Shown here: one piece after another, positions 3,856 through 27,961 of the stretch
Layout: each line of letters begins with the position of its first letter
Position numbering within the stretch: position 1 is the first letter of the stretch
Assembly (NCBI GenBank): GCA_036563745.1
Contig: DATCLV010000514.1
Location: forward strand, 1-27,961
Origin: Acidimicrobiales bacterium
GTDB lineage: Bacteria > Actinomycetota > Acidimicrobiia > Acidimicrobiales > VFJN01
Direction: 5' to 3'
DNA: 27,961 bases
The notes under the pieces: model-generated
Databases searched by the model: none
What the model was told of the DNA's origin: nothing
The model's input: only the letters and a program-made list of their open reading frames with translations
Translations under genes and position numbers: made by a program

Positions 3856-4986
3856 CTAGGCGGCGGGGGCCGGGACGAGCTCCCGGAGGGCCGGGACGAC
3901 CTCGGTGGCGTACAGCCGGATCGACTCGGCGTTGGCCGCGTCGGGCACGCCCGGATAGGTGAGCCGGCTGGCCAGGTGGCCGGCGGCCTCGGGCGGCAGG
4001 GCCCCGAGCACCTCGACGAACGGGGCGAGCTTGGCCACCACCTCCTCGGGGGTGCCGATGACGAGGGCGTGGCCGAGCTTCTCGTCGTCGTGGGCGATCG
4101 CCCGCCCCGGGTCGGCCGCCTCCCACTCGTCGCCCGGCCGCCAGGCCCGCACGCCCGAGCCGCCGGCCCCGGTCTCGTCGGCCTTCCAGGTCCGGGACTG
4201 CCCCTGGAGCTGGCGGAGCCCGGGCGCCACGATCTCGGCGGCGTCGCGGGCGGCCACGAACGTGAGGGTCGACTGGGCGACGGCGAAGTCGCGGCGGCCG
4301 GTCTCCTCCCGGATCCAGTCGATCCGGCGCTGCAGGCCGCCGGCGCCCATCTGCGGGGCGATGTAGCCGTCGGCGTGGCGCCCGGCCCGGCGCACGGCCG
4401 GCTCGACGAACCCCCCGACCCACACGGGCGGCCCGCCGTCCTGGAACGGGAGCGGGCTGGTGGGGACGACCTCGTCGGGGTCGAGGACCCCGACGCCCGA
4501 CAGCTGCCCGGTGGCCTGCTGGCGGAGGACCCGGATGCACTCGAGCAGCCGGGGGACCCGGTGGCGGCGGCGCAGGCCGAGGCCCTCGAACTCGACGTCG
4601 CGGTAGCCGGTGCCGAGGCCGAGGATGAGCCGCCCGCCGCTGAGCTGGTCGACGACGGCGGCCTCCTCGGCGAAGCGGACGGGGTCCCACATGGAGGCGA
4701 GGAGGATGTCGGTGCCGACCGTGACGCGCTCGGTCCGCTCGGCGATGGCGGCGAGCGCGACGAGCGGGGCCGGCAGGTAGCCGTCGGCGCTGAAGTGGTG
4801 CTCGCAGGTCCACACGGCGTCGAGTCCGTGCTCCTCGGCCAGCACGGCGTGCTCGACGACGTCGCGCAGCGCCCGGTGGTAGCCGGCGGGGCTGGTGTCG
4901 GCGGCGTGGGCCGACAGGCCGCTGAGCCCGAACGTCAGCCCGGGTTGCACCGCGCCGCGGTGCGGGGTCGGGGTCGGGTTGGCCAC
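3856..4986 (-). CDS. Luciferase-like (LLM class) flavin-dependent oxidoreductase
   Basis: WTCEHHFSADGYLPAP, AIAERTERVTVGT, DQLSGGRLILGLGTGYRDVEF. Start reassigned to GTG 4986 (RBS GGGGAG) instead of 5097. Confidence 0.9.
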   Translation of the reverse strand: MANPTPTPHRGAVQPGLTFGLSGLSAHAADTSPAGYHRALRDVVEHAVLAEEHGLDAVWTCEHHFSADGYLPAPLVALAAIAERTERVTVGTDILLASMWDPVRFAEEAAVVDQLSGGRLILGLGTGYRDVEFEGLGLRRRHRVPRLLECIRVLRQQATGQLSGVGVLDPDEVVPTSPLPFQDGGPPVWVGGFVEPAVRRAGRHADGYIAPQMGAGGLQRRIDWIREETGRRDFAVAQSTLTFVAARDAAEIVAPGLRQLQGQSRTWKADETGAGGSGVRAWRPGDEWEAADPGRAIAHDDEKLGHALVIGTPEEVVAKLAPFVEVLGALPPEAAGHLASRLTYPGVPDAANAESIRLYATEVVPALRELVPAPAA

Positions 4987-5019
4987 GGCTTGCTCCCCCT
5001 GGGTCCTCGATGACGCATC

Positions 5020-5037
5020 CCAAGCAAATGCTAGGTT
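5020..5037. promoter_or_regulatory. Shared operator site A (divergent LLM / SnoaL promoter)
   Basis: CCAAGC-AAAT-GCTAGG-TT; overlaps TANNNT -10 candidates on both strands (TAGCAT minus 5033-5028; TAGGTT plus 5032-5037). Confidence 0.7.
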
Positions 5038-5111
5038 GGGACGAAGGGCACGGTACGACCGCCCGGCGGGGCCGTCAACCGGTCCCGCCCGCCGCACCCG
5101 GGAGGAACTCG

Positions 5112-5579
5112 ATGTCCCGACTCGACGACGTCCACGCCATCGAGCAGCTCCTCTACCGCTACGCGGTGGCGATCGACACCCGTGACCTGGCCGCGCTCGA
5201 CGCCGTCTTCACCCCCGACGCCTGGCTCGACATGAGCGTGGCGGGCACGCTGACCCCGGCCGAGTACCGGGCCAAGGCCGCGACGGTGCTGGCCGACCTC
5301 GACGCCACCCACCACCTGCTGGCCAGCCCGCTCGTCGAGGTGGCCGACGACGGCACGACCGCCACCGCCCACTGCTACTACCAGGCCCAGCACGTCCGGA
5401 ACGACTGCCCCGGCGGGCCGCTGCTGCTGATCGGCGGGTGGATCGACGACGAGCTGGTGCGCACCCCGGAGGGCTGGCGGATCACCCGGCGCCGCGGGCG
5501 GGCCGTGTGGTTCGACGGCAACCCGGCGGTGCTGGGGCTCGACGTCCGGGTGCCGGGCGGCCGCCGGCCCGTCGACTGA
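5112..5579 (+). CDS. SnoaL-like / NTF2-family protein
   Basis: AIEQLLYRYAVAIDTRDL..L..VFTPDA, THHLLASPLVEV..D.ATAHCY.QAQH, YxD-like WIDDELVRTPEGWRI; RBS GGAGGA at 5101-5106. Confidence 0.88.
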   Translation: MSRLDDVHAIEQLLYRYAVAIDTRDLAALDAVFTPDAWLDMSVAGTLTPAEYRAKAATVLADLDATHHLLASPLVEVADDGTTATAHCYYQAQHVRNDCPGGPLLLIGGWIDDELVRTPEGWRITRRRGRAVWFDGNPAVLGLDVRVPGGRRPVD

Positions 5580-5676
5580 CCGACGTCGCCCCACGCCGAC
5601 CGACCACGACCGAGAGCGACCACCGCGACGACGACCGGCCGCGGCAGGGTTGACGCCGACCCCGCCGCACGGCCAG

Positions 5677-5697
5677 TTGATCAAATGCTTGGTTGGG
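5677..5697. promoter_or_regulatory. Shared operator site B (amidohydrolase promoter)
   Basis: ATCAAATGCTTGGT (5680-5693); CAAATGCTTGGTTGGG (5682-5697) is 15/16 identical to site A (5025-5040); TTGACG -35 candidate at 5650-5655. Confidence 0.65.
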
Positions 5698-5774
5698 CGT
5701 ACCGTGGCACCGAGCGACGACGAGGCCCGGCCGGCGCACGGCCGCGGCCGGCGAGGCACAGGGGAAGAGTCCTG

Positions 5775-7052
5775 ATGAGCATGACCAGCGAGCGGCCGCG
5801 CCACGAGCTGCTGCCGGAGCCGGAGCCCGAGACCATCCGCTACCCGGTCATCTCCGTCGACGACCACGCCGTCGAACCACCCGACCTGTTCACCTCCCGG
5901 CTGCCCGCCCGCCTCCGGGACGCGGCGCCCCGCGTCGTCGAGGACGAGCGCGGCGACCAGCACTGGCAGATCGGCGACGAGCGCATCCGCATCGGCATCC
6001 AGGGCATGTCCGCCGTGGGCCTGCCGCCCGACAAGCGCACCTACGACGCCATCCGCTACGACGAGATGTGGCCCGGCGCCGTGTCCATCGACGCCCGCGT
6101 GCGCGACATGGACCTCTGTGGCGTCGCCGCCGCCGTGAACTTCCCGTCGACGATCTTCGGCTTCTCGGGGCGGCGGCTGGCCGACATCCCGGACCGCGAG
6201 GTGGGCCTGGCCTGCTTCGAGGCCTACAACGACTGGACCAACGACTACGCCGACGAGCACCCCGGCCGGTTCGTCAAGCAGGGCATCGCCTGGCTGCACG
6301 ACGTCGACGTCGCCGCCGAGCAGGTGCGCCGCAACGCCGAGCGGGGCTTCACCGCCCTGTCGTGGACCGAGAACCCCGAGCGCCTCGGCCTCCCCTCCCT
6401 GTACTCGGGCTACTGGGAGCCGCTGTTCACCGCCTGCGAGGAGACCGGCACCGTGCTCGACCTCCACGTCGGCTCCGGCGCCCTCACGATGGTGCCGTCC
6501 TCCCAGACGCCGGCCCCCGCCCACTCGGTGATGTTCCCGGCCAACGGGATGATGACCGCCGTCGACTGGATCTTCGCCGGCATCCCGTCCCGGCACCCCG
6601 ACCTGAAGATCGTGTTCTCGGAGGCGGGCATCGGCTGGGCCCCGATGGTGCTGGAGCGCATGGAGCGCCAGGAGGCCCGCGGCCGCCTCAACCCGGACGG
6701 CTGGCCGGCGCCCGAGGAGGGCAACATGTTCACCCGGCCGTTCGAGCCGCTGCCCGAGCCGATGGCCGACGCGTTCCGCCGCAACTACTACTTCGCCACG
6801 CTCGGCGAGCCGCTGCTGCTGCGCCTCCGGGACGCCATCGGCATCGACCACATCATGATGGAGTGCGACTACCCGCACACCGACGCCCTCTTCCCGTACG
6901 TGCAGGACACCGTGGTCAACAGCACCGACGGCTGCACCGAGGAGGAGATCCACCGCCTGGCGTGGGCCAACGCCTCCCGGCTCTACCGGCACCCGCTGCC
7001 CGACCTGCCCGGGTTCCCGGCGGTGCCGGAGCACCTGAAGCCGGCGCTCTGA
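5775..7052 (+). CDS. Amidohydrolase_2 family metal-dependent protein
   Basis: ISVDDHAVEPPDLF, RVRDMDLCGV, AYNDW, LDLHVGSG, FSEAGIGW, MECDYPHTD. Start moved to ATG 5775 (or 5781). Confidence 0.88.
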   Translation: MSMTSERPRHELLPEPEPETIRYPVISVDDHAVEPPDLFTSRLPARLRDAAPRVVEDERGDQHWQIGDERIRIGIQGMSAVGLPPDKRTYDAIRYDEMWPGAVSIDARVRDMDLCGVAAAVNFPSTIFGFSGRRLADIPDREVGLACFEAYNDWTNDYADEHPGRFVKQGIAWLHDVDVAAEQVRRNAERGFTALSWTENPERLGLPSLYSGYWEPLFTACEETGTVLDLHVGSGALTMVPSSQTPAPAHSVMFPANGMMTAVDWIFAGIPSRHPDLKIVFSEAGIGWAPMVLERMERQEARGRLNPDGWPAPEEGNMFTRPFEPLPEPMADAFRRNYYFATLGEPLLLRLRDAIGIDHIMMECDYPHTDALFPYVQDTVVNSTDGCTEEEIHRLAWANASRLYRHPLPDLPGFPAVPEHLKPAL

Positions 7053-7121: not shown

Positions 7122-8045
7122 TCAGGCCGGCGCGTGGCGGCGGAACGCCTCGACCAGCGCGCCGCACGCCGCGGCCGGGTCGTCGGCGGCGCCGGGCGCC
7201 AGCCGCAGGTCGACGCGGACGTCGGTCACCCCCGCCGCCACCAGGCGGGGCACCGACGCCATGCTCCCGTCGAGGTCGGGGCGCCCCCCGCCGTCGCGGG
7301 CCACCTCGACCGGCGCCCGCACCTGCAGCGCACCCGGGTCCCGGCCGGCGCCCTCCAGCGCCCGGCGCAGCCGGTCGACCCCGGCCCGGATCTCGTCGAG
7401 CGACGCGCCCATGATCGGGATCCAGCCGTCGCCCAGGCGGGCGATCCGGTCGACGTTGCGCCGGTGCAGCACGCCCGAGAACAGCACCGGCAACCGCGCC
7501 TGGACCGGCTGCGGGGCGCAGAACGTGTCGTCGAAGCGCACGGCGGCCGACGAGAACGACGCCGGCAGGTCCTCCCACAGCGCCCGGCACGCGGCGACCA
7601 CGTCGGTCAGCAGCTCGCCCCGGCGGTCGAAGTCGAGCCCGACCGCGTCGAACTCCTCCCGCTGCCACCCCACCCCGACGCCGAGGTCGAGGCGACCGCC
7701 GGTGAGCTGGTCGACGGTGGCCGCGGTCTTGGCCAGCAGGGCCGCCGGCCGCAGCGGGGCCACCAGGATCCCGGTCGCCAGCCGCAGCCGCTCGGTCACC
7801 GCACCCACCGCCGCCAGGACGGTCAGCGGCTCCAGCCACGGCGCCTCGGGCGGGTAGGGGAACGGGCCCCAGGCGTACTCGTGGGTGTTGCGGCCCATCA
7901 CCACGTGGTCGACCACCACGACGCGGTCGACGCCGGCGGCCTCGGCGGCGCGGGCGAGGTCGAGCAGTTGGCGCCAGCCGGCCTCGGGCCGGGGACCGAA
8001 GTTGGGGAGGCCGACGGTGAGCGTCGGGGTCACGGTCACGGTCAC
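7122..8045 (-). CDS. LLM class oxidoreductase (Rv2161c / TIGR03619-like subfamily)
   Basis: VDHVVMG, EPLTVLAAVGAVTERLRLATGILVAPLRPAALLAKTAATVDQLTGGRLDLGVGVGWQREEF, DGWIP. GTG 8045 overlaps the upstream TGA (GTGA). Confidence 0.9.
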   Translation of the reverse strand: MTVTVTPTLTVGLPNFGPRPEAGWRQLLDLARAAEAAGVDRVVVVDHVVMGRNTHEYAWGPFPYPPEAPWLEPLTVLAAVGAVTERLRLATGILVAPLRPAALLAKTAATVDQLTGGRLDLGVGVGWQREEFDAVGLDFDRRGELLTDVVAACRALWEDLPASFSSAAVRFDDTFCAPQPVQARLPVLFSGVLHRRNVDRIARLGDGWIPIMGASLDEIRAGVDRLRRALEGAGRDPGALQVRAPVEVARDGGGRPDLDGSMASVPRLVAAGVTDVRVDLRLAPGAADDPAAACGALVEAFRRHAPA

Positions 8046-8545
8046 GTCGCGCCCGGCGTCGGGAAGCCGTCGACGGTGTCGTGCCGGGTCCACTGGCGGC
8101 GGACCTCGCGCCGGGCGAACCGCCACCGCCCGGTCGCGTCCCGGGCGTAGCGGTCGAGGTAGCGGATGCCCATGACGTGGTCGTCGTAGCGGCCGTCGCC
8201 GGTGGGGGTGAGGTGGTGGCCGACGCAGGCGGCCTCGCCGGTCGCCGTGTCGGCCGCGGTGTCGGCACCCCCGCCGTCGCCCGGCGTGTCGTCGAGCCGG
8301 CACACGTGGTTGCCCACCAGGTGGAACGTGAGGACGTAGCGGCGCCGGAGGATCGTGATCACCCGGGCGATCTCGTCGACGCCCCGGTGGTCGCCCTCGG
8401 GTGGCCCGTCGCCGGCGTGGGTGGTGAGCCGGGCGTCCGGCAGCCACAGGCTGCGGAACGCGGCCTCGTCCCGGCGGTCGACCGCCGAGGCGTACACGTC
8501 GACCAGCTCGCGCAGCGCCAGACGGTCCTCGATCGGCAGGGTCAC
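8042..8545 (-). CDS. SnoaL-like / NTF2-family protein
   Basis: EDRLALRELVDVYASAVDRRD..AF..LW.PDA, TFHLVGNH, GIRYLDRY.R...GRWRF. GTG 8545 overlaps the upstream TGA. Confidence 0.88.
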   Translation of the reverse strand: MTLPIEDRLALRELVDVYASAVDRRDEAAFRSLWLPDARLTTHAGDGPPEGDHRGVDEIARVITILRRRYVLTFHLVGNHVCRLDDTPGDGGGADTAADTATGEAACVGHHLTPTGDGRYDDHVMGIRYLDRYARDATGRWRFARREVRRQWTRHDTVDGFPTPGAT

Positions 8546-9057
8546 GTCACCGGCACGATCCGGCCGTAGCCGCCCCGGTGGAACACCAGCGGCGAGCGCG
8601 TCGCGCCGGGCAGCTCGAGGTCGAGCACGCGGCCGAGCACCAGCCAGTGGTCGCCGGTGGGGACCACCTGGTCGATCCGGCAGTCGATCCACGCCACCGC
8701 GTCGTCGAGCCGGGGCGCGCCGGTCAGCCCCGGGCGCCAGCCGCAGGACCCGAAGCGGTCGACGCCCTTGGTGGCGAACAGGCGGCACAGGTCCTCCTGG
8801 TGGTCGCCGACCACGTTGGCGCAGAACGCGCCGGCGGCCTCGATGCCCGGCCACGTCGACGACCGGTGGTCGACGAAGAAGCCGACCAGCGGCGGGTCGA
8901 GCGACACCGACGTGAACGACCCGACCGCCAGGCCCACGGGGCCCGGGTCGCCGGGGGCGGTCACGATCGCGACGCCGGTCGGGTGGTGGCCCAGCACCTC
9001 GCGCATGCGGAGGGGGTCGATCACGGGGTCGTCCGGAGGCACGGTCGTCATCGTCAC
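8542..9057 (-). CDS. Flavin reductase family protein (HpaC/HsaB-like)
   Basis: REVLGHHPTGVAIVT, GLAVGSFTSVSLDPPLV, SSTWP, GDHWLVLGRV, PLVFHRGGY. Confidence 0.92.
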   Translation of the reverse strand: MTMTTVPPDDPVIDPLRMREVLGHHPTGVAIVTAPGDPGPVGLAVGSFTSVSLDPPLVGFFVDHRSSTWPGIEAAGAFCANVVGDHQEDLCRLFATKGVDRFGSCGWRPGLTGAPRLDDAVAWIDCRIDQVVPTGDHWLVLGRVLDLELPGATRSPLVFHRGGYGRIVPVT

Positions 9058-18255: not shown

Positions 18256-18286
18256 CTGGTCAGGCGCAGGCGTCAGGTGGCGGCCG

Positions 18287-20434: not shown

Positions 20435-20451
20435 TTTCAGCGTCGTGTCAG
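20435..20451 (-). promoter_or_regulatory. Direct-repeat site upstream of the response regulator (autoregulation candidate)
   Basis: Minus strand CTGACA-CGACG-CTGAAA, 15/17 identical to the first PepSY-promoter site; overlaps the hrpA stop codon. Confidence 0.65.
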
Positions 20452-23400
20452 CCGAGCGCGGCGATGGCGGTGGAGAGGCGGCGGGGGCTCACCGGCGTGG
20501 GCGTGCCGAGCTTCTGGGCGAACAGGCTCACCCGCAGCTCCTCCAGCAGCCAGCGGGCCTCCACCACGTCGTCGTCCGCCCGGCGGGCCGGGGGCAGCGC
20601 CTCGACGGCCTCGGCGTAGGCGTCCTCCAGCGACCGGACCGTGGCCATCAGCTCCCGGTCGCGGTCCGGCCGGTCGCGCAGCTTCCCGAGGCGCAGGCGG
20701 ATCGCCTCCAGGTAGCGGGCCAGGTCGGGGAGCCGGGCCAGGCCGGTCGCCGCCACGAACCCCGGGTAGACCAGGTCGCCCAGCTGCGACCGCATGTCGG
20801 CGTACGCCTCGGCCAACGCCGGCGGCGCCGACGCCAACCGCTGCTCCAGCGTCGCCGCCGCGGCCACGATCGCCGCCGCCTGCCCGGCCGCCGCCACCGC
20901 CAGCGGGGCCAGCCGCTCCCGGGCCGCCCGGCGCAGCCGCTCGAAGCCCTCGTCGTCCCAGGCCGGCCCGCCCCGGGCGGCGAGCAGCCGGTCGGCCGCC
21001 GCGGTCACGCAGTCGTCGGCCAGCGCCTCCTGCACGTCCCGCCGCACCTGCCCCGGGAACAGGGCGCGCACCCCGTCCTTCGGCGGCAGGTTCGTGGGCG
21101 CCTGCAGGCGGCGGACCACCTGCTGGCGGGCCTTCGGGGCAGCCAGGAGCAGCAGCCGCCGGGTGCCCGCCCACATCCACCGCGCCTGGGTGGCCGGCGT
21201 CGTGGCGATGCGGACCGCCACGGTCGCGCCCTCGTCGACCAGCGCCGGGTAGGCGACCACCTCGACGCCGCCGGCGTCGGCGGTGACCGTCCGGGGCAGC
21301 CCGCCCGCCGGCCACTCGGTGAGGCCCGAGCGCTCCAGGTGCCGGGGCGCCACGGCGGCGACGGCCCGGCGGGCCCGGTCGGCCAGCGCCGCCGCCAGGG
21401 CGTCGAGGTCGCGGCCCGCCCCCACCACCCGGCCCTCGGCGTCCTCCACCTGGAACCGCATCCGCAGGTGCCGGGGCAGCTTGCCGAACGCGGCGTCCAG
21501 GTCGGCCGGCGCCACCCGCACGCCCGCCAGCGACGACAGGCGGCGGGCCAGCACCTCCGCCAGCGGCCCGTCGGCGGGCCCGATGCCGTCGAGCGCCTCC
21601 CGGGCCTTCTCGTGGGCGGGCGACAGCTCCCGCCGCACCGCCTTCGGCAGGCCCCGGATCAGCGCCGTGACCAGCTCCAGCCGGTGCCCGGGCACGTGCC
21701 AGTCGACGCCCGCCGAGGTCAGCCGGGGCAGCAGCACCAGCGGCACGTGCACGGTGACGCCGTCGTCGTCGGCGCCGGGCTCGAACACGTAGGACAGGTC
21801 GAGCACCAGGTCGTCGCCGGCGGACGAGGGCAGGGTCCAGGTGAGCGGGAACCCGCCGGTGTCGACGTCGTCGGCGTCGACGCCGAGCACGTCCTCCAGC
21901 GTGAACGTGAGCCGGTCCCGCTCGGCACGGGTGGCGCGACGCCACCACCGGTCGAACGCCCGGGTGGAGGCGACGTCGTCGGGCAGCCGCTCGGCGTAGA
22001 GCGCCGCCAGCCGCTCCTCGCTCACGACGAGGTCGGCGCGCCGGGTGCGGGCCTCCAACCCGCGGGCCTTGTCGAGCACCTGCCGGTTGGCCTCGGGGAA
22101 CGGGTAGCGGCCGTCGTCGTCCCAGTCCCCCTCGACGAGGGCGTGCTCGACGAACAGGTCGCGGGCGAGGTCGGGGTCGAGGCGCTCGACGGCGATCGAC
22201 CGGCGGGGCACGATCGGCAGGCCGTACAGCGTGACCTGCTCGTCGACCACGGCCTGGCCGCGGCGCCGGCTCCAGGTCGGCTCGCCGTAGGAGCGCTTGA
22301 CCAGGTGCTCGGCCAGCGGCTCGATCCACGACGGGTCGATGCGGGCGACCGTCCGGGCCCACAGGCGCCCGGTCTCGACCAGCTCGCCCGCCATCAGCCA
22401 CGCCGGCGACGACTTCGCCAGCGCCGAGCGCGACGCCACCTGGAACCGGGCCTGGCGGGCGCCCCGGTAGTCGCCCTTGACCCGGTCGTACATGCCGACG
22501 TGCGACAGCAGCCCGGCCAGCAGCGCCCGGTGGATGGCGTCGGGCGGCGCCGGGGTGGCGCCGTCGTTGCGGGGCAGCCGCAGGTCGCGGGCCACCTCCC
22601 GGAGCTGGCGGACGAGGTCCTGCCACTCGCGCACCCGCACGTAGTTGAGGTACTCGGCCCGGCACATCCGCCGGAACCCGTTGCCGGTCCGGGCCCGCTG
22701 CTCGGTGGTGAGGTGCTCCCACAGGCGCAGGTAGGCCAGGAAGTCGGAGCCCGGCACCCGGAACCGGGCGTGGAGCTGGTCGGCCTTCTGCTCCTCGTCG
22801 GTGGGGCGCTCCCGGGGGTCGAGGATCGACAGCCCCGCCACGATCACGATGACCTCCCGCAGGCAGCCGTTCTCGGCGGCGGCCAGCAGCATCCGCCCGA
22901 ACCGGGGGTCGACGGGGAGGCGGGCCATGCGGCGGCCGTCGCGGGTGAGGGTCAGCCGGTCCTGGTCGGGGACGAGCGCCCGCAGCTCGACCAGCAGCGC
23001 CACCGCGTCGCGCACCGCCCGGCGGTCGGGCGGGTCGATGAACGGGAACGACTCGACGTCGCCCAGCCCCAGCTCGGCCATCTGCAGGATGACCGACGCC
23101 AGGTTCGTGCGCAGGATCTCGGGCTCGGTGAACTCGGGCCGGGACTCGAAGTCCTCCTCGCTGTAGAGGCGGATCGCGATGCCCGGCGCCACGCGGCCGC
23201 AGCGGCCGGACCGCTGGTTGGCCGACGCCTGGCTCACCGGCTCGATCGGCAGGCGCTGCAGCTTGGTGCGCCGGTTGTAGCGGGAGATGCGGGCCGTGCC
23301 GGTGTCGACGACGTAGCGGACGCCGGGCACGGTGATCGACGTCTCGGCCACGTTGGTGGCCAGCACGATGCGCCGGCCCTTGTGCGGCTTGAACGCCCGC

Positions 23401-24194
23401 TGCTGCTCGGCCGCCGACAGCCGGGCGTAGAGCGGGAGGATCTCGGTGTTCGGCCGGTCGTCCTCGGCCAGGGCGCGGGCGGTGTCGTGGATCTCCCGCT
23501 GCCCGCTGAGGAACACGAGGATGTCGCCGGGGCCCTCCCGGGACAGCTCGTCGACCGCGGCCCGGATGGCGTCGACCTGGTCGCCCGACTCCGGTTCCCG
23601 GTAGCGGATCTCCACCGGGTAGGTCCGCCCCGACACCTCCACCACGGGGGCACCGAAGTGGCGGGCGAACCGGTCGGTGTCGATGGTGGCCGAGGTGACG
23701 ATCACCTTCAGGTCCGGCCGGCGGGGCAGCAGGTCGGTGAGGTAGCCGAGGAGGAAGTCGATGTTGAGGCTCCGCTCGTGGGCCTCGTCGACGATGATCG
23801 TGTCGTAGCGGCGCAGGTCGGGGTCGCTGCGCAGCTCGGCGAGCAGCACCCCGTCGGTCATGAGCTTGACCATCGTGCCGTCGCTCACCTGGTCGGTGAA
23901 CCGGACCTTGTAGCCGACGACGTCGCCCAGCTCGGTGTCGAGCTCCTCGGCGATCCGGGCCGCGACCGTCCGCGCCGCGAGCCGGCGCGGCTGGGTGTGG
24001 CCGATCATCCCCTCCCGGCCCCGGCCGAGCTCCAGGCAGAGCTTGGGGAGCTGCGTGCTCTTGCCCGACCCGGTCTCGCCGGCCACCACGACCACCTGGT
24101 GGTCGCGGATCGCGGCGAGCACGGTCTCCCGCTGTGCCGTGATCGGCAGGGCCTCGGGGTAGGTCAGCCGGAGACGGCGATCGTTCCCGGGCAC
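20448..24194 (-). CDS. hrpA: ATP-dependent RNA helicase HrpA
   Basis: GETGSGKSTQLPK, HTQPRRLAAR, DEAHERSLNIDFLLG, SAT, ATNVAETS.TVPG, SQASANQRSGRCGR, HA2, DUF1605/OB and DUF3418 C-terminus (RWLLEELRVSLFAQ.LGT..PVS). Likely leaderless (TAGCTT 24206-24201, 6 nt before GTG). Confidence 0.97.
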   Translation of the reverse strand: MPGNDRRLRLTYPEALPITAQRETVLAAIRDHQVVVVAGETGSGKSTQLPKLCLELGRGREGMIGHTQPRRLAARTVAARIAEELDTELGDVVGYKVRFTDQVSDGTMVKLMTDGVLLAELRSDPDLRRYDTIIVDEAHERSLNIDFLLGYLTDLLPRRPDLKVIVTSATIDTDRFARHFGAPVVEVSGRTYPVEIRYREPESGDQVDAIRAAVDELSREGPGDILVFLSGQREIHDTARALAEDDRPNTEILPLYARLSAAEQQRAFKPHKGRRIVLATNVAETSITVPGVRYVVDTGTARISRYNRRTKLQRLPIEPVSQASANQRSGRCGRVAPGIAIRLYSEEDFESRPEFTEPEILRTNLASVILQMAELGLGDVESFPFIDPPDRRAVRDAVALLVELRALVPDQDRLTLTRDGRRMARLPVDPRFGRMLLAAAENGCLREVIVIVAGLSILDPRERPTDEEQKADQLHARFRVPGSDFLAYLRLWEHLTTEQRARTGNGFRRMCRAEYLNYVRVREWQDLVRQLREVARDLRLPRNDGATPAPPDAIHRALLAGLLSHVGMYDRVKGDYRGARQARFQVASRSALAKSSPAWLMAGELVETGRLWARTVARIDPSWIEPLAEHLVKRSYGEPTWSRRRGQAVVDEQVTLYGLPIVPRRSIAVERLDPDLARDLFVEHALVEGDWDDDGRYPFPEANRQVLDKARGLEARTRRADLVVSEERLAALYAERLPDDVASTRAFDRWWRRATRAERDRLTFTLEDVLGVDADDVDTGGFPLTWTLPSSAGDDLVLDLSYVFEPGADDDGVTVHVPLVLLPRLTSAGVDWHVPGHRLELVTALIRGLPKAVRRELSPAHEKAREALDGIGPADGPLAEVLARRLSSLAGVRVAPADLDAAFGKLPRHLRMRFQVEDAEGRVVGAGRDLDALAAALADRARRAVAAVAPRHLERSGLTEWPAGGLPRTVTADAGGVEVVAYPALVDEGATVAVRIATTPATQARWMWAGTRRLLLLAAPKARQQVVRRLQAPTNLPPKDGVRALFPGQVRRDVQEALADDCVTAAADRLLAARGGPAWDDEGFERLRRAARERLAPLAVAAAGQAAAIVAAAATLEQRLASAPPALAEAYADMRSQLGDLVYPGFVAATGLARLPDLARYLEAIRLRLGKLRDRPDRDRELMATVRSLEDAYAEAVEALPPARRADDDVVEARWLLEELRVSLFAQKLGTPTPVSPRRLSTAIAALG

Positions 24195-24320: not shown

Positions 24321-25412
24321 CTACCGCGGGACGAACACCCCGTGCAGCGGCGGCGGGTCGCCCGACGCGCCGGCCATCGTCAGCAGCAGGTCGCCGACGT
24401 CCGCGAACCCGGCCGTGCGCCGCGGGATGCGGGCGGCGGGGAACGTGCCCGTGACCAGCAGGTCCAGCGCCCGCTCGTGGGCGGCGGTGCTGACCCCGCT
24501 GGCGCCCTGCAGGCGCAGGCCCCGGTTGACGATCAGGTCGGGGGCGAAGGTGAGGGTCACCTCGCCGCCCCGGACGCCGGCGACGACCACCCGCCCGCCC
24601 TTGCCGGCGAGCGCGACGGCCTGGGCGAACGCGGTGGGCGCCTTGGCGGTCACGTCGACGACCACGTCGGCCAGGCCGCCGGTGGCGTCCTGCAGGGCGG
24701 CGACCGGGTCGTCGCGGGCCACGTCGACGGCGAGGTCGGCACCCAGCTCCCGGGCCAGCTCCAGCCGGGGCAGGTCGTGGGGGCCGACGCCGGTCACCAT
24801 GACGAACCCCGCCCCCGCCGCCTTGGCGGCCGCCACCGCGGCGATGCCCCGGATGCCGGGGCCGAGGACGGCCACCACGTCGCCGGGGCCGGTGCCGGGG
24901 ATCTCCACGCCCCAGCACACGCCGGCGCCCAGCGGGTTGAACAGGGCGGCGTCGACCGGGTCGAGGTCGGGCGGCAGCTTGTGCACCACCGACCGGGGGC
25001 CCAGGTAGTGGTGGGTGGCGTAGCCGCCCCACAGGCCCGGGGCCCGGTCGACGGGCGTGAGGCCGTAGGGCAGGCCGTCGTAGTCGGCGCAGGCGGCCAG
25101 CTCGCCCCGGCGGCACGGCTCGCACTCGCGGCACGCCGGCCGGGGCGCGACGGTCACCCGGTCACCGGCGGCGACGCCCCACCGGGCGGCGGCCACGGGC
25201 CCGATGGCCTCGATGACGCCGACGGTCTCGTGGCCGGGCACGAACCCGGGCGGCCAGGGCAGGTCGCCGGTGTAGAGCTCGTGGTCGGTGCCGCACAGGC
25301 CGCAGGCCTCGACCCGGAGGACGGCGTCGTCCTCCCCCACCGCGGGGAGGGGCAGCTCCCGAGCGACGAGCCGCCGCGGCGCCTCCAGCACGAGGGCGGT
25401 GGCGGCGCTCAT
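24321..25412 (-). CDS. Zn-binding medium-chain dehydrogenase/reductase
   Basis: VEACGLCGTDH, PGHE, structural Zn CRECEPC..G...C, GPGIRG; ATG 25412 overlaps the upstream TGA (ATGA). Confidence 0.92.
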   Translation of the reverse strand: MSAATALVLEAPRRLVARELPLPAVGEDDAVLRVEACGLCGTDHELYTGDLPWPPGFVPGHETVGVIEAIGPVAAARWGVAAGDRVTVAPRPACRECEPCRRGELAACADYDGLPYGLTPVDRAPGLWGGYATHHYLGPRSVVHKLPPDLDPVDAALFNPLGAGVCWGVEIPGTGPGDVVAVLGPGIRGIAAVAAAKAAGAGFVMVTGVGPHDLPRLELARELGADLAVDVARDDPVAALQDATGGLADVVVDVTAKAPTAFAQAVALAGKGGRVVVAGVRGGEVTLTFAPDLIVNRGLRLQGASGVSTAAHERALDLLVTGTFPAARIPRRTAGFADVGDLLLTMAGASGDPPPLHGVFVPR

Positions 25413-26290
25413 CGCCGGTGCTCCAGCGCCAGGCCGGGCGTGGGCCAGGTGCAGGCGACGACCCGGCCGGTCTCCGACAGGGTCAGGTAGGCGGTGGTGC
25501 GGTCGGGCCCGCCGAAGCAGAGGTTGGTGACCATGGGGTCGAACAGGTCGTCGGGCAGCGTGTGCTGGGTGACCGTGCCCCCGTCGGCGCTGAACTGCGT
25601 GACCACGCCGGAGATCAGCGTGCCGACGCAGACGCTGCCGTCGGCGGCCACGGCCAGCGAGTCGAACATCTGGACGCCGGGGACGCTGCCCACCAGCGAG
25701 TCGGGGTCGTGGTTGCGGTCGTGGACGAGCTCGCCGGGGCCCACGATCTCCCGCCCGTAGAGCCGGCCGGACAGGGTCTCGGCCCAGTAGAGCGTGCGGC
25801 CGTCGGGCGAGAGGCCGATGCCGTTGGGGGCGTCGACCTTGTCGATCACTCGCACGATCCCGCTGCCGTCGGCCCGGGCGTGGAACAGCCCGCCGTAGAG
25901 GCGGGCGTCGGCGAGGAACTTGCCGGTGTCGGTGAACCAGAAGCCGCCGTCGCCGTCGAAGACGAGGTCGTTGGGTCCGGCGAGCCGTCGCCCGTCGCAC
26001 GCCTCGTAGAGCACCTCGACCTTGCCGGTGTCGAGGTCGACCCGCTCGACGCGCCCGCCCCGGTACTCGGCTTCGGCGCCGCCGTTGTTGCAGACGTAGA
26101 GGGCGCCGTCGGGGCCGATGGCCATGCCGTTGGGCCCGCCGCCGGGCTCGGCGACCACCTCGGGGCGCCCCGTCCCGTCGGGCGGGATCCGGGTGACGAC
26201 GCCCCGGCGGATCTCGGCGACGAGGAGGCTGCCGTCGTCCAGCGCCACCGGCCCCTCGGGGAAGACCAGCCCCTCCGCCACGACCCGCAC
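25409..26290 (-). CDS. SMP-30/gluconolactonase/LRE family protein
   Basis: FPEGP, PNGMA, PNDLVFD..GG.WFTD, PNGIGLSPDG, TNLCFGG. GTG 26290 is preferred over ATG 26320 because the extra 10 codons consist of operator site E; the start is uncertain. Confidence 0.9.
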   Translation of the reverse strand: MRVVAEGLVFPEGPVALDDGSLLVAEIRRGVVTRIPPDGTGRPEVVAEPGGGPNGMAIGPDGALYVCNNGGAEAEYRGGRVERVDLDTGKVEVLYEACDGRRLAGPNDLVFDGDGGFWFTDTGKFLADARLYGGLFHARADGSGIVRVIDKVDAPNGIGLSPDGRTLYWAETLSGRLYGREIVGPGELVHDRNHDPDSLVGSVPGVQMFDSLAVAADGSVCVGTLISGVVTQFSADGGTVTQHTLPDDLFDPMVTNLCFGGPDRTTAYLTLSETGRVVACTWPTPGLALEHRR

Positions 26291-26293: not shown

Positions 26294-26316
26294 AACAAGC
26301 GGTCGCTTGCTTGGTT
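26294..26316. promoter_or_regulatory. Shared operator site E (lactonase-MDR promoter)
   Basis: Plus AACAAGC-GGTC-GCTTGCTTGGTT; minus AACCAAGCAAGCGACCGCTTGTT. Confidence 0.65.
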
Positions 26317-26445: not shown

Positions 26446-26880
26446 TCAGTGGGCGTGCTCGTGGTGGTGGCGGACCATCACCAGGTACATGAGCGGGAAC
26501 ATCGCCACGTGCTCGATCACCATCAGGGCGCCGCCGTCGAGCACCCCGGCCCCGACGAGCGGCAGCAGCGCCACCGGCGTGACGAGCATGGCGCCGGCCA
26601 TCTCCAGGGTCCCGGCCCAGGCATGGCCCCGGAACCGCATCCAGACGACCATGCCGAGCGCCATGTCGACGGCCATCTTCAACGCGGCGACCGCGGGCGA
26701 CAGCTCGACGTCGAGCCCGAGGACCGCCACCGCCCCGACCCAGAGCCCGCCGAACACGCCCATGCCCACGAACATCGCCACGACCATCTCCAGGTAGTGG
26801 CGGGCGAGCCCCCGCGACCACCACACGGTGCCGTGCCCCGGCTCGACACCCGTCGTCCTCTGCAGCTCTGCGACCGTCAT
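26446..26880 (-). CDS. Small Met/His-rich four-helix membrane protein of unknown function
   Basis: 144 aa, four hydrophobic segments, 14 Met, 9 His, C-terminal HHHEHAH; RBS GGGAGGGGA. Confidence 0.8.
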   Translation of the reverse strand: MTVAELQRTTGVEPGHGTVWWSRGLARHYLEMVVAMFVGMGVFGGLWVGAVAVLGLDVELSPAVAALKMAVDMALGMVVWMRFRGHAWAGTLEMAGAMLVTPVALLPLVGAGVLDGGALMVIEHVAMFPLMYLVMVRHHHEHAH

Positions 26881-26904
26881 CCCGATCCCCTCCCTCGCCT
26901 TTAA

Positions 26905-26959
26905 GTCGAACAGTGTTGTTCAGGTTTTCCGCACGATAACCTGAACACACCTGTTCGAC
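26905..26959. promoter_or_regulatory. Paired TetR-type operators in the divergent promoter
   Basis: 22-bp inverted repeat (19/22) with an 11-nt spacer; each arm contains GAACA-N4-TGTTC (26908-26921, 26943-26956). Confidence 0.8.
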
Positions 26960-26987
26960 AACCCTGATCGACTGGGGGATCCCCCTG

Positions 26988-27551
26988 ATGCGAGCCGACG
27001 CCCTCCGCAACATCGACGCGATCCTCGAGGCGGGCCACCGCTGCCTGGCCGCCGATCCCGACGCCTCGGTGGGCGACATCGCCAAGGCGGCCGGCGTCGG
27101 CCGGGTCACGCTCTACGGGCACTTCGCCAACCGGGCCGAGCTCGTCGAGGCCGTCGTCCAGCGGGCGCTGGCGCGCTTCGACGCCGCGCTGGCGTCGGTC
27201 GACTTCGGCGGCGACCCGCGTCAGGCGCTGGTGCGGCTGGTGGAGGCGAGCTGGCGACCCACGGCCGAGTCGGCGAACCTCCTGGTCGCCGCCGAACGGG
27301 CGCTCCCGCCGGAGAAGCTGCTGGCCACCCACGAGGGGCCGGCCAAGCGGGTGGTCGAGCTGCTGGAGCGCGGCCGCGAGGCGGGCGCGTTCCGCACCGA
27401 CCTGCCCACGTCGTGGCTGGTCGCGATGTTCCACGCCACCGTGCACGCCGCGGCCAACGAGCTGGCCGCCGGCAACCTCGACCCCGACGCCGCGGCGCCC
27501 ACCATCGCCACGACCCTCCTCGCCGCCTTCACCCCACCCACCCCGACCTAG
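26988..27551 (+). CDS. TetR/AcrR family transcriptional regulator
   Basis: RADALRN..AILEA, SVGDIAKAAGVGRVTLYGHFANRAEL (HTH); GRxAGAFRTDL. Confidence 0.93.
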   Translation: MRADALRNIDAILEAGHRCLAADPDASVGDIAKAAGVGRVTLYGHFANRAELVEAVVQRALARFDAALASVDFGGDPRQALVRLVEASWRPTAESANLLVAAERALPPEKLLATHEGPAKRVVELLERGREAGAFRTDLPTSWLVAMFHATVHAAANELAAGNLDPDAAAPTIATTLLAAFTPPTPT

Positions 27552-27630
27552 CGGGGGAGCGGTCACCGACCGACGACGTCGACCCGTCCTCCGCCGGTGG
27601 GTCGGACAGCACGTTCCGGTTGGCGGGACC

Positions 27631-27683
27631 TTGACCCGGGGCGGGGGTGGGCTTAGCTTGCCATTGACCAAGCGATTGCTTGG
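27631..27683 (+). promoter_or_regulatory. Sigma70-type promoter plus shared operator site F (aldehyde dehydrogenase)
   Basis: TTGACC (27631-27636), 17 nt, TAGCTT (27654-27659), then a perfect CCAAGC-GATT-GCTTGG (27668-27683) at the predicted start region. Confidence 0.78.
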
Positions 27684-27713
27684 CAGACGGAGACGCCAGG
27701 GGGAGAAGGACGA

Positions 27714-27961
27714 GTGGGCGACGGCGAGACGGCGGTCGGGTTCTCGCAGGTGATCGGCGGCGTGGCCGGACCGGCGCAGGACGGGCGGGTCCTCGACAGC
27801 GTCGACCCGTCGACCGGCACCGTCTGGGCCACCATCCCCCGGGGCACCGCCGCCGACGTCGACGCCGCCGTCCGCGCCGCCCACGCCGCCCGGCGCGACT
27901 GGGCGCGGCTCGGCCCGGCCGGGCGGGCCCGGCGGCTCCGGCGCCTCGCCGAGCTGTTCGC
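27714..27961 (+). CDS. Aldehyde dehydrogenase, N-terminal fragment (runs off the window)
   Basis: Own translation from GTG 27714: MGDGETAVGFSQVIGG...VLDSVDPSTGTVWATIPRGTAADVDAAVRAAHAARRDWARLGPAGRARRLRRLAELF, a classic ALDH N-terminus; RBS GAAGGA. Not in the ORF track. Confidence 0.88.
   Translation, partial: MGDGETAVGFSQVIGGVAGPAQDGRVLDSVDPSTGTVWATIPRGTAADVDAAVRAAHAARRDWARLGPAGRARRLRRLAELF

What the first reader, a model, noticed from the sequence alone, without database searches (positions are those of the whole stretch)
3856..27961. Operator-linked genes add up to a plausible ring-opening pathway for an alicyclic, terpenoid or steroid-like substrate
Seen: the boxed units encode an uptake lipoprotein, MDR and SDR alcohol dehydrogenases, two luciferase-like enzymes plus a flavin reductase, an SMP-30 lactonase and an SGNH esterase, an ALDH, a class III CoA transferase, a BadH-like CoA-dehydrogenase, an Ltp2/DUF35 aldolase pair, two SnoaL proteins and an amidohydrolase. 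Established: luciferase-fold FMN enzymes include type II Baeyer-Villiger monooxygenases (diketocamphane monooxygenases); BadH acts in cyclohexanecarboxylate ring cleavage; Ltp2-DUF35 performs retro-aldol cleavage in steroid side chains. Inference: alcohol to ketone to lactone to hydroxy acid to diacid/CoA ester to retro-aldol or beta-oxidation. I do not recognise this gene combination as a described pathway. The substrate cannot be read from sequence, and the units may serve several substrates.
Basis: inference. Interest (0 to 1): 0.62.

Follow-up and report, generated by a model that had tools for sequence, protein, structure and literature searches.

The report
KstR2-switched breakdown genes for ring-bearing acids

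Summary

**The box is a KstR2 operator.** It is an 18-bp palindrome, ACCAAGC-N4-GCTTGGT. It nearly matches KstR2 sites proven by EMSA in M. tuberculosis and predicted in R. jostii. The MAG encodes two KstR2 homologues on other contigs. About 23 such operators lie on six contigs, all intergenic and 8-137 nt before start codons. The window is one part of a multi-locus regulon rich in paralogues.

**Three homologies fit an alicyclic, terpenoid or steroid-like CoA-ester substrate:**
- the KstR2 regulators;
- an Ltp2-type retro-aldolase with both catalytic tyrosines;
- the "amidohydrolase", which is a DitZ-like diiron diterpenoid hydroxylase with both ARO motifs.

**The linear Baeyer-Villiger route is weakened:**
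- LLM2 and three other regulon LLMs fall in curated F420 families, and the genome makes F420.
- No LLM resembles a diketocamphane monooxygenase.
- Gene order is not conserved in congeners.
- About 8 kb of the span is unrelated genes.
- The canonical echA20-ipdA genes carry a different operator.

Earlier notes of this scan describe expanded KstR2 regulons on other DNA.

Verdict: a new variant of a known kind, of moderate interest.

The parts
5019..5036 (.). KstR2-type operator 1 (CCCAAGCAAATGCTAGGT), between divergent LLM1 and SnoaL1
   Evidence: (PWM 29.7), 86: 32 nt from the LLM1 start and 75 nt from the SnoaL1 start
5676..5693 (.). KstR2-type operator 2 with a weaker left arm (GTTGATCAAATGCTTGGT), upstream of the DitZ-like gene
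   Evidence: (PWM 21.3)
11528..11545 (.). KstR2-type operator 3 (GCCGAGCGCTTGCTTGGT), between the divergent CoA-transferase operon and the binding-protein gene
   Evidence: (22.7); resembles the M. tuberculosis Rv3557c/58 site shown
16508..16525 (.). KstR2-type operator 4 (ACCGAGCGCTAGCTTGGT), between the divergent Ltp2 operon and the NmrA-like gene
   Evidence: (23.3)
26294..26311 (.). Weak KstR2-type operator 5 (AACAAGCGGTCGCTTGCT), 12 nt before the SMP-30 start taken at 26281
   Evidence: (PWM 16.9; the control maximum is 18.5, so this site alone is not significant)
27667..27684 (.). KstR2-type operator 6 (ACCAAGCGATTGCTTGGC), 29 nt before the ALDH start
   Evidence: 0 mismatches to the core; 30.6; 16 of 17 nt match the predicted R. 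jostii ro04652/53 KstR2 site
3856..4986 (-). LLM1, a luciferase-like oxidoreductase of 376 aa; cofactor class unassigned
   Evidence: Pfam PF00296, E 6e-53. No NCBIfam cut-off is reached. Nearest solved structures are FMN luciferase-type enzymes, at only E 1e-20.
5112..5579 (+). SnoaL_4 (NTF2-fold) protein 1
   Evidence: E 9.5e-32
5781..7052 (+). Amidohydrolase-related dinuclear oxygenase (ARO), DitZ-like putative diiron hydroxylase
   Evidence: PF04909. Best solved relative is 8UYR, Rhodococcus DitZ, E 1.2e-65 over residues 22-410; next is PtmU3, 5.9e-30. Both ARO motifs, D-x-H (VDDH) and D-x-P-H-x-D (DYPHTD), are present.
7122..8045 (-). LLM2, a member of the TIGR03619 (Rv2161c-type) F420-dependent LLM family, 307 aa
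   Evidence: NCBIfam 215.6 bits vs cut-off 166.9. Database homologues carry the same name, from Acidimicrobiales MAGs. The GTGA start/stop overlap with SnoaL2 was read from the sequence.
8042..8545 (-). SnoaL_4 protein 2, translationally coupled to LLM2; a recurrent partner of this LLM family
   Evidence: An LLM-SnoaL pair is seen in 12 of 31 metagenome loci.
8542..9042 (-). NAD(P)H:flavin reductase (PF01613), HsaB-like
   Evidence: NF045630, 161 bits, below the cut-off of 230
9054..11459 (-). Fused double class III CoA-transferase, first gene of the operon behind operator 3
   Evidence: Orthologues of 43-52% identity occur in relatives, without the same neighbours.
11607..12833 (+). Leu/Ile/Val-type substrate-binding lipoprotein (Peripla_BP_6) with signal peptide and lipobox Cys
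   Evidence: the permease genes are on contigs C374 and C399
12945..16491 (-). Operon Ltp2-like aldolase (15277-16491), DUF35 (14846-15280), SsfX3_N-SGNH esterase (13762-14853), SDR (12945-13700)
   Evidence: Ltp2 6OK1, E 2.9e-79; the LYD and GYVHG tyrosines are conserved and there is no nucleophilic Cys. The SDR scores 251 bits on BadH, below the cut-off of 431.
16544..17656 (+). NmrA-like NAD(P)-binding protein (16544-17368) and Amphi-Trp protein (17441-17656), the unit divergent from the Ltp2 operon that shares operator 4
24321..26281 (-). Operon SMP-30 beta-propeller lactonase (25409-26281), then MDR Zn-alcohol dehydrogenase (24321-25412), with a 4-nt overlap
   Evidence: (7RIS/8DJF, E 3.7e-70)
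27714..27959 (+). N-terminal 81 codons of an aldehyde dehydrogenase, cut by the contig end
   Evidence: PF00171, E 3.4e-12, profile positions 7-63
17737..24194 (-). Not part of the regulon: PepSY, histidine kinase, OmpR-type response regulator and HrpA helicase. None has an operator.
   Evidence: HrpA is 77% identical (aa) to that of the same-genus genome G002, which ties the contig to this lineage.
26446..27551 (.). Not part of the regulon: Met-rich membrane protein (-) and TetR (+), with their own GAAC-N6-GTTC double palindrome at about 26903-26958

Best explanation
**What the window is.** It carries six or seven transcription units of a large KstR2-type regulon in an uncultured high-GC actinobacterium, probably Acidimicrobiales.

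**Shown by sequence**
- Each unit is preceded by the palindrome ACCAAGC-N4-GCTTGGT, which is the KstR2 operator.
- Two KstR2 paralogues are encoded on other contigs. Both have the same DNA-recognition helix as M. tuberculosis KstR2.

**Inferred from family knowledge**
- The paralogues repress these promoters and release them on binding one or more acyl-CoA thioesters.

**Inferred function: catabolism of ring-bearing, isoprenoid-derived carboxylic acids (resin-acid, terpenoid or steroid-like) as CoA esters**
1. Uptake by a binding-protein ABC system.
2. CoA activation by the double class III CoA-transferase, and by FadD ligases encoded elsewhere in the regulon.
3. C-H hydroxylation by the DitZ-like diiron oxygenase.
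4. Alcohol/ketone and ene redox steps by SDR, MDR, NmrA-like and F420-type LLM enzymes. The LLMs have SnoaL partners of unknown role.
5. Removal of ring-attached side chains by the Ltp2-DUF35 retro-aldolase.
6. Hydrolysis of lactones or esters by the SMP-30 and SGNH enzymes.
7. Aldehyde oxidation by the ALDH.

The many paralogous modules on the five other contigs make several substrates or branches more likely than one linear route. A Baeyer-Villiger step remains possible, for LLM1 or for the LLM-lactonase pair on contig C374, but it is not shown.
For: **Operator identity**
- The window sites match KstR2 sites proven by EMSA in M. tuberculosis and the predicted R. jostii sites.
- 23 sites score PWM 20 or more, against 0 in the control. 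All are intergenic and 8-137 nt from a start codon.

**Regulators**
- C654:14489-15139 and C374:8276-8926 both hit KstR2 (4W97) at E 1.6e-43 and 6.6e-40.
- Both carry the recognition helix AGILSGSLYHHF, identical to that of M. tuberculosis KstR2.
- The nearest named homologues in the database are mycobacterial KstR2.

**Enzymes**
- Ltp2: 6OK1, E 2.9e-79, with both catalytic tyrosines kept.
- ARO: 8UYR DitZ, E 1.2e-65, with the D-x-H and D-x-P-H-x-D motifs. A second ARO lies next to a CoA-transferase on C299.
- Lactonase: 7RIS, E 3.7e-70.

**Regulon content on contigs C299, C374, C399, C503 and C654**
- FadD ligases, acyl-CoA dehydrogenases, ECH, MaoC and thiolases
- two more SCP-x/DUF35 pairs
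- six more LLMs and three more SnoaL proteins
- two more SMP-30 proteins
- binding proteins and permeases

**F420 capacity**
- CofD, CofE and an FbiC-like CofH all score above their cut-offs.
Against: - No substrate can be read from sequence, and no expression or binding data exist.
- The KstR2 effector here is unknown. The two paralogues are only 33% identical and 42-50% identical to mycobacterial KstR2.
- The canonical KstR2 targets echA20-ipdA are present in this genome but carry a different operator, TCTGAC-N5-GTCAGA. The steroid link may therefore be only ancestral.
- Neither the operator enrichment nor a close KstR2 was found in 40 relatives. Gene order is not conserved. Comparative support for the unit set is therefore lacking.
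- The MAG is 73% complete and fragmented.
- The PWM was built from the same sites it scores.
Confidence: 0.55

Rival explanations
1. One reading: the boxed units of this window together make one linear ring-opening pathway. An alcohol goes to a ketone. An FMN-dependent LLM, supplied by the flavin reductase, performs Baeyer-Villiger lactonisation. A lactonase or esterase gives a hydroxy acid. ALDH gives a diacid. CoA transfer and then retro-aldol cleavage or beta-oxidation follow.
For: - All the required enzyme classes are present.
- A flavin reductase lies in the same operon as LLM2.
- LLM1 is not assigned to an F420 family, and its nearest solved relatives are FMN monooxygenases.
- An LLM gene is translationally coupled to an SMP-30 lactonase and RibBA on C374.
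- The SMP-30 protein is a homologue of a proven lactonase.
Against: - LLM2, the LLM next to the reductase, scores above the cut-off of the F420 family TIGR03619. Three more regulon LLMs fall in F420 families, and the genome makes F420.
- No diketocamphane monooxygenase appears among the solved relatives of either LLM.
- The reductase and CoA-transferase never accompany LLM2 homologues in 31 metagenome loci.
- The units are not syntenic in congeners.
- The window is only about a quarter of the regulon.
- The regulon has a better oxygenase candidate, the DitZ-like ARO.
Confidence: 0.12
2. The units are accessory members of the ordinary steroid ring C/D (HIP) regulon. The substrate is a steroid, the effector is HIP-CoA, and the window genes handle side reactions of steroid fragments.
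For: - The operator and regulators are KstR2-type.
- The genome has IpdA (6CO6, E 5.5e-64) behind an ECH gene, and a KshA_C protein.
- Ltp2 is a steroid side-chain aldolase.
- A mycobacterial amidohydrolase gene with a putative KstR2 site is induced by phytosterol (PMC6593523).
Against: - echA20-ipdA in this genome has no KstR2 box. It carries the TCTGAC-N5-GTCAGA palindrome, whose 24 sites lie on 22 other contigs.
- IpdA and KshA_C occur in 21 of 24 family genomes. The KstR2 box enrichment and a close KstR2 do not. The two systems therefore look uncoupled.
- The nearest characterised relative of the oxygenase acts on a diterpenoid, not a steroid.
Confidence: 0.2
3. A generic fatty-acid or branched-chain lipid beta-oxidation regulon under a FadR-like TetR, with no ring chemistry involved.
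For: - The regulon holds many beta-oxidation-type genes: FadD, acyl-CoA dehydrogenases, ECH, MaoC, thiolase, and Leu/Ile/Val-type transport.
- The TetR_C_24 domain also occurs in FadR-type regulators. NCBIfam gives Bacillus FadR as a weak hit at 66 bits.
Against: - Both regulators hit KstR2 about 30 orders of magnitude better than FadR-type structures.
- Fatty-acid oxidation does not need Ltp2-type aldolases lacking the thiolase Cys, DitZ-like hydroxylases, lactonases or SnoaL proteins.
Confidence: 0.13

Closest known systems
KstR2 regulon of Mycobacterium tuberculosis, M. smegmatis and Rhodococcus jostii RHA1 (Kendall 2010, PMC3068626; Crowe 2017, PMC5380842)
   Same: - TetR repressor of the same family, with an identical recognition helix.
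- The same operator sequence, AnCAAGnnCTTGnT inside ACCAAGC-N4-GCTTGGT.
- Sites lie in short, often divergent intergenic regions 10-140 nt from start codons.
- The target genes act on CoA thioesters.
   Different: - About 23 operators on at least 97 kb, against 3 operators and 15 genes.
- Two diverged regulator paralogues.
- The targets are LLMs, SnoaL proteins, ARO hydroxylases, lactonases, class III CoA-transferases, Ltp2 aldolases and ABC uptake genes, in place of ipdABC, echA20, fadD3 and fadE30-33.
- The echA20-ipdA genes of this genome are under another operator.
- The effector is unknown.
DitZ, diiron diterpenoid (dehydroabietic acid) hydroxylase, and PtmU3, of the amidohydrolase-related dinuclear oxygenase (ARO) superfamily (PMC13154177; PDB 8UYR, 6OMP)
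   Same: - PF04909 fold.
- Full-length similarity (E 1.2e-65).
- N-terminal D-x-H and C-terminal D-x-P-H-x-D metal motifs.
- A non-aromatic residue at the gamma4 position, as in the diiron class.
   Different: - Roughly a third of residues are identical (judged from the bit score, not measured).
- The substrate is unknown.
- The other dit-cluster genes were not looked for; none appears in the window by Pfam.
- The electron donor is unidentified. A DAO-Rieske fusion lies 2 kb away but has no box.
Ltp2-ChsH2(DUF35) steroid side-chain retro-aldolase (PDB 6OK1, Thermomonospora curvata)
   Same: - Thiolase fold without the nucleophilic Cys.
- Both catalytic tyrosines kept.
- A DUF35 partner encoded next to it with a 4-nt overlap.
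   Different: - The DUF35 is a free-standing protein, not the C-terminus of a MaoC hydratase.
- There is no hydratase in the operon. MaoC genes lie elsewhere in the regulon.
- The operon also holds an SGNH esterase and an SDR.
Camphor pathway type II Baeyer-Villiger system: diketocamphane monooxygenases plus flavin reductase
   Same: - LLM-fold enzymes encoded with a flavin reductase.
- Lactone-hydrolysing enzymes and CoA activation are present.
   Different: - No specific similarity to diketocamphane monooxygenases was seen among solved relatives.
- The LLM next to the reductase belongs to a curated F420 family.
- No evidence of oxygenase activity.
Rhodopseudomonas palustris broad-specificity beta-propeller lactonase (PDB 7RIS; PMC9843451)
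   Same: Full-length homology of the SMP-30 protein (E 3.7e-70).
   Different: The genomic context differs: here the gene is coupled to an MDR alcohol dehydrogenase under a weak KstR2-type site. The substrate is unknown.
BadH, 2-hydroxycyclohexanecarboxyl-CoA dehydrogenase (TIGR03206)
   Same: It is the best-scoring NCBIfam model for the SDR at 12945-13700.
   Different: 251 bits against a cut-off of 431, and FabG-type models score nearly as well. It is not a member by the curated test.

Membership tests
KstR2 operator | 14-bp palindrome AnCAAGnnCTTGnT, or its extended form as in the sites proven by EMSA | tested here: met
   The window sites were compared with Table 3 of PMC3068626. Site 27667 matches the predicted R. 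jostii site at 16 of 17 nt, and 11528 resembles the Rv3557c/58 site.
KstR2 operator | Located in promoter regions close to start codons, more often than chance allows | tested here: met
   23 genome sites score PWM 20 or more, against 0 in the reversed control. All are intergenic and 8-137 nt from a start codon. Site 26294 alone is below the control maximum.
KstR2 operator | Bound by KstR2 protein and released by its CoA-thioester effector | not testable with these tools
   Needs EMSA or footprinting with the two paralogues.
KstR2 (TetR family, TetR_C_24) | Full-length sequence similarity to characterised KstR2, with a conserved DNA-recognition helix | tested here: met
   4W97 at E 1.6e-43 and 6.6e-40; the helix AGILSGSLYHHF is identical. 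These genes lie on contigs C654 and C374, not in the window.
KstR2 regulon (HIP catabolism) | Operator in front of echA20-ipdABC, fadD3, fadE30-33, ipdF and fadA6 | tested here: not met
   ECH-IpdA on C122 has no KstR2 box and carries TCTGACGGTCCGTCAGA instead. The boxed FadD proteins score below the FadD3 cut-off.
Ltp2-type aldolase | Thiolase fold lacking the Cys nucleophile, with the two catalytic Tyr residues (Tyr294 and Tyr344 of 6OK1) | tested here: met
   Alignment to 6OK1_A, (LYD and GYVHG conserved; GGGTQTAS at the Cys position).
Ltp2-type aldolase | DUF35 partner protein | tested here: met
   PF01796 and PF12172 protein at 14846-15280, overlapping the Ltp2 stop codon.
Amidohydrolase-related dinuclear oxygenases (ARO) | PF04909 fold with N-terminal D-x-H and C-terminal D-x-P-H-x-D/E, at least 200 residues before the latter | tested here: met
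   VDDH at residue 27 and DYPHTD at residue 363 of the 423-aa protein.
Amidohydrolase-related dinuclear oxygenases (ARO) | Oxygenase activity with a dinuclear metal cofactor | not testable with these tools
   Needs the purified enzyme.
Type II (LLM, FMN-dependent) Baeyer-Villiger monooxygenase | FMN-dependent LLM related to diketocamphane monooxygenases, served by a flavin reductase | tested here: inconclusive
   - A reductase is present.
- LLM2 is in F420 family TIGR03619, above the cut-off.
- LLM1 is unassigned.
- No diketocamphane enzyme appears among the solved relatives.
F420-dependent LLM oxidoreductases (TIGR03619) | Score above the curated cut-off, in a genome able to make F420 | tested here: met
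   - LLM2 scores 215.6 vs 166.9.
- CofD scores 322, CofE 254 and CofH 464 bits, all above their cut-offs.
- LLM1 does not meet the cut-off (126 bits).
BadH (TIGR03206) | Score above the equivalog cut-off of 431.2 bits | tested here: not met
   250.9 bits.

The most novel reading that the evidence does not exclude
An uncultured Acidimicrobiales-like actinobacterium has uncoupled the KstR2 switch from the classical steroid ring C/D genes, which sit under a different repressor site in the same genome. It has spread that switch, with two diverged KstR2 sensors, over about 23 promoters. Those promoters drive an undescribed oxidative pathway for polycyclic terpenoid or steroid acids, built from DitZ-like diiron hydroxylases, F420-type LLM-SnoaL pairs, Ltp2 retro-aldolases and lactonases.
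Probability: 0.3. Interest if true: 0.7.

Novelty: new variant of a known kind. Interest (0 to 1): 0.5.

Why it matters
**Breadth of KstR2 control.** The published KstR2 regulon has three operators and fifteen genes for the last two steroid rings. If my reading holds, KstR2-type repressors govern much broader and different gene sets in uncultured soil actinobacteria.

**Candidate enzymes.** The window offers concrete, cloneable candidates for poorly known steps in the turnover of resin acids, other terpenoid acids and steroid fragments:
- a DitZ-like diiron hydroxylase;
- a free-DUF35 Ltp2 aldolase;
- an LLM-SnoaL pair that recurs in metagenomes.

**Annotation.** The "amidohydrolase" here is probably an oxygenase. 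"Luciferase-like monooxygenase" next to a flavin reductase need not mean an oxygenase.

Tried and rejected
1. **Taxonomy by HrpA.** The class is inferred only from names on LLM2 homologues.
I could not inspect the neighbourhoods of the closest LLM2 homologues (81-83% identity).
3. **Synteny.** Around orthologues of the double CoA-transferase in six relatives, and for the whole span in three congeners, I found only paralogue-level neighbours.
4. **Two frame errors of mine.** LLM1 as 3856-4993 gave no PDB hit. The window end read as 27680-27961 gave no Pfam hit. Both were corrected.
5. **Whole-window repeat finder**: drowned in GC-rich codon periodicity. The boxes were found by reading the intergenic regions and AT-rich islands.
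6. **Solved-structure searches for LLM1 and LLM2** did not settle the cofactor.
7. **HsaA model NF045629** found only a truncated 92-bit match at a contig end. This is not decisive.
8. **Bin contamination.** I considered that the six box contigs might come from another organism. I rejected this for C846, because its HrpA is 77% identical (aa) to that of the same-genus G002. I did not test the other five contigs.
9. **The window TetR (26988-27551) as the box binder.** Rejected: it has its own GAAC-N6-GTTC palindromes and no KstR2-like hits.

Full report
**Source and gene map.** The window is the whole of contig C846, the longest contig of a fragmented MAG. The MAG has 882 contigs, 4.96 Mb, 74.6% GC, and is 73% complete. 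At 76% GC a raw ORF list is useless. I therefore called genes from third-position GC and checked them with Pfam and NCBIfam.

**Observation.**
- The ALDH is the 81-codon N-terminus at 27714-27959 (PF00171, E 3.4e-12).
- The "class III CoA transferase" is a fused double domain of 801 aa.
- The SDR's best model is BadH, but at 251 bits against a cut-off of 431.
- The span also holds about 8 kb of genes with no box and no link to catabolism: PepSY, a two-component pair, the 1248-aa HrpA helicase, a Met-rich membrane protein and a TetR with its own GAAC-N6-GTTC palindromes.

**The box.**
- Reading the intergenic regions and AT-rich islands shows an 18-bp palindrome, ACCAAGC-N4-GCTTGGT. It occurs at 5019, 5676, 11528, 16508, 26294 (weak) and 27667.
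- Genome-wide, the same motif clusters on five more contigs.
- A PWM scan gives 23 sites scoring 20 or more, against none in the reversed genome (control maximum 18.5). The matrix was built from these sites, so the scores are generous.
- The simple pattern count is independent of that: 24 in this genome against 10 for the backwards pattern, and no excess in any of 40 relatives.
- All sites are intergenic and 8-137 nt from a start codon.

**Identity of the box.**
- A TetR gene next to a box on contig C654 hits M. tuberculosis KstR2 (4W97) at E 1.6e-43. A second TetR on C374 hits it at 6.6e-40.
- The two are 33% identical to each other. Both share with M. tuberculosis KstR2 the identical recognition helix AGILSGSLYHHF.
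- Kendall et al. 2010 (PMC3068626) list the EMSA-proven M. tuberculosis sites TACCAAGCAAGTGCTTGCTTAGGT and TATCAACCAAGCGCTTGCTCGGCC, and the predicted R. jostii site ACCGAACCAAGCGATTGCTTGGTA. Window site 27667 (ACCAAGCGATTGCTTGGC) is the R. jostii site at 16 of 17 positions.

**Extent and content of the regulon.** On C299, C374, C399, C503 and C654 the boxed units encode:
- six more LLMs and three more SnoaL proteins;
- two more SMP-30 proteins;
- a second flavin reductase and a nitroreductase-family protein;
- a further class III CoA-transferase and a second ARO;
- two more SCP-x/DUF35 pairs, one with an HMG-CoA-synthase-like fusion;
- FadD ligases, acyl-CoA dehydrogenases, ECH, MaoC, thiolase and HMG-CoA-lyase-like enzymes;
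- a 2-oxoacid:ferredoxin oxidoreductase;
- four binding proteins, and ABC permeases.

The window is therefore roughly a quarter of a regulon rich in paralogues. That argues for several substrates or branches rather than one linear route.

**What the key enzymes are.**
- *Ltp2-like protein.* The thiolase-fold protein is closest to the steroid side-chain aldolase Ltp2 (6OK1, E 2.9e-79). It keeps both catalytic tyrosines and lacks the Cys nucleophile. A free DUF35 protein follows, with a 4-nt overlap.
- *The "amidohydrolase".* It is closest to Rhodococcus DitZ (8UYR, E 1.2e-65, full length) and then to PtmU3. Both are amidohydrolase-related dinuclear oxygenases. DitZ is a diiron hydroxylase of the diterpenoid dehydroabietic acid (PMC13154177). 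The two motifs that paper proposes as the ARO signature, D-x-H and D-x-P-H-x-D/E, are both present (VDDH, DYPHTD). They are also present in the C299 paralogue next to a CoA-transferase. This is the best oxygenase candidate in the window.
- *SMP-30 protein.* It is a full-length homologue of a proven broad-range lactonase (7RIS, E 3.7e-70).

**The LLMs.**
- LLM2, which sits in the operon with the flavin reductase, scores 215.6 bits on TIGR03619, an F420-dependent LLM family with a cut-off of 166.9. Its database homologues carry that name.
- Three more regulon LLMs pass the cut-offs of TIGR03621, TIGR03617 and TIGR03619.
- The genome has CofD, CofE and an FbiC-like CofH, all above their cut-offs.
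- LLM1 reaches no cut-off. Its nearest solved relatives are FMN luciferase-type monooxygenases, at only E 1e-20.
- No diketocamphane monooxygenase appears among the solved relatives of either LLM.
- In its favour, C374 has an operon of box, LLM, SMP-30 and RibBA.

**Co-conservation.**
- Orthologues of the double CoA-transferase in six relatives have no LLM2, SnoaL or reductase beside them.
- In three same-genus genomes, homologues of the window genes are scattered over different contigs. HrpA itself is 77% identical (aa), which ties C846 to this lineage.
- In 31 metagenome loci of 5 kb or more that carry LLM2 homologues, a SnoaL gene is adjacent in 12. The reductase and the CoA-transferase are never adjacent. 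One locus has a KstR2-like box 24 nt before the LLM.
- No relative has a KstR2 homologue above 36% identity. In the large protein collection the nearest are 60, 56 and 49% identical, followed by a cloud at 42-50% that includes named mycobacterial KstR2.

**Relation to steroid catabolism.**
- The genome does hold classical steroid genes. On C122 an ECH gene is coupled to IpdA (6CO6, E 5.5e-64). C276 holds a KshA_C protein.
- IpdA (70-89% identity) and KshA_C occur in 21 of 24 genomes of the family.
- The ECH-IpdA promoter has no KstR2 box. It carries TCTGACGGTCCGTCAGA.
- That palindrome, TCTGAC-N5-GTCAGA, has 24 sites in the genome against 0 in the control. They lie on 22 contigs, none of which is a KstR2-box contig.
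- Earlier notes of this scan describe the same second operator on steroid ring genes of uncultured Acidimicrobiia (e1-3243050, e1-1360251), and expanded KstR2 regulons in other soil actinomycetes (e1-5203970, e1-5203979, e1-4288603). Those notes are unchecked by me, apart from the C122 site.
- In this genome the KstR2 switch is therefore separate from the conserved ring C/D core.

**Model.**
- *Shown:* the shared operator, the regulator family, and the enzyme-family assignments above.
- *Inferred:* acids are taken up by the binding-protein ABC system and converted to CoA esters by the class III transferase or FadD ligases. One or more of these esters release the two KstR2 paralogues. The rings or side chains are hydroxylated by the AROs. 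They are then adjusted by SDR, MDR, NmrA-like and F420-LLM oxidoreductases. Side chains on ring carbons are removed by the Ltp2-DUF35 aldolase. Lactones, esters and aldehydes that arise are handled by the SMP-30, SGNH and ALDH enzymes.
- *Unknown:* the substrate (resin acid, other terpenoid acid or steroid fragment), and the role of the SnoaL partners.

**Caveats.**
- The evidence is sequence only, from an incomplete MAG.
- The tallies over 40 relatives include two unpublished genomes, G001 and G017. No conclusion rests on them alone.
- The class (Acidimicrobiales) rests only on names attached to homologues.

**Verdict.** This is a new variant of a known kind, a KstR2-type regulon with non-canonical content, and of moderate interest.

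Noticed in passing
G000 contig C122:6471-6487 and 23 other sites on 22 contigs (none in the window): A second operator family, TCTGAC-N5-GTCAGA, has 24 sites at one mismatch or fewer, against 0 in the reversed-genome control. One lies just before the ECH-IpdA (echA20-ipdA-like) operon. None is on a KstR2-box contig.
   Followed up: partly
L005 (C654):14489-15139 and L002 (C374):8276-8926: Two KstR2 paralogues are only 33% identical to each other but have an identical recognition helix. They may be two sensors reading one operator class.
   Followed up: partly
window 26903-26958, with 26446-26880 (-) and 26988-27551 (+): The window's own TetR and the divergent Met-rich membrane protein share a separate double palindrome (GAAC-N6-GTTC, twice, inside a larger inverted repeat). 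It is unrelated to the KstR2 box.
   Followed up: no
window 2157-3761 (+): An FAD-dependent oxidoreductase (DAO) fused to a Rieske [2Fe-2S] domain lies 2 kb from the DitZ-like ARO. AROs are often encoded near Rieske ferredoxins (PMC13154177), so it is a possible electron donor. It has no KstR2 box.
   Followed up: no
L005 (C654):10652-13218: An HMG-CoA-synthase-like protein fused to DUF35 is followed by an SCP-x thiolase and an acyl-CoA dehydrogenase, under a KstR2 box. It recalls the archaeal thiolase/HMG-CoA synthase/DUF35 complex.
   Followed up: no
L002 (C374):7111-8196, with boxes at 7011 and 7059: A 361-aa protein with no Pfam or NCBIfam match is preceded by two KstR2-type operators.
   Followed up: no
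L002 (C374):1821-5103: An operon of KstR2 box, LLM, SMP-30 lactonase and RibBA. This is the only LLM-lactonase coupling in the regulon, and it is linked to flavin precursor synthesis.
   Followed up: no
window 7122-8545, and loci L134, L159, L164, L182, L190, L194, L197, L198, L201, L202: A TIGR03619-type LLM paired with a SnoaL_4 protein recurs in 12 of 31 metagenome loci, usually among acyl-CoA genes. The pair has no described function.
   Followed up: partly
G000 contigs C299, C374, C399, C503, C654, C846: All KstR2-type operators lie on six contigs totalling 97 kb, several of them among the longest in the MAG. They may be pieces of one catabolic island. C503 ends with, and C299 begins with, parts of a binding-protein gene.
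   Followed up: no
window 3790-3842 and 12846-12905: Long, near-perfect GC-rich hairpins lie between convergent genes. They are likely bidirectional terminators that bound the LLM1 unit and the binding-protein unit.
   Followed up: no
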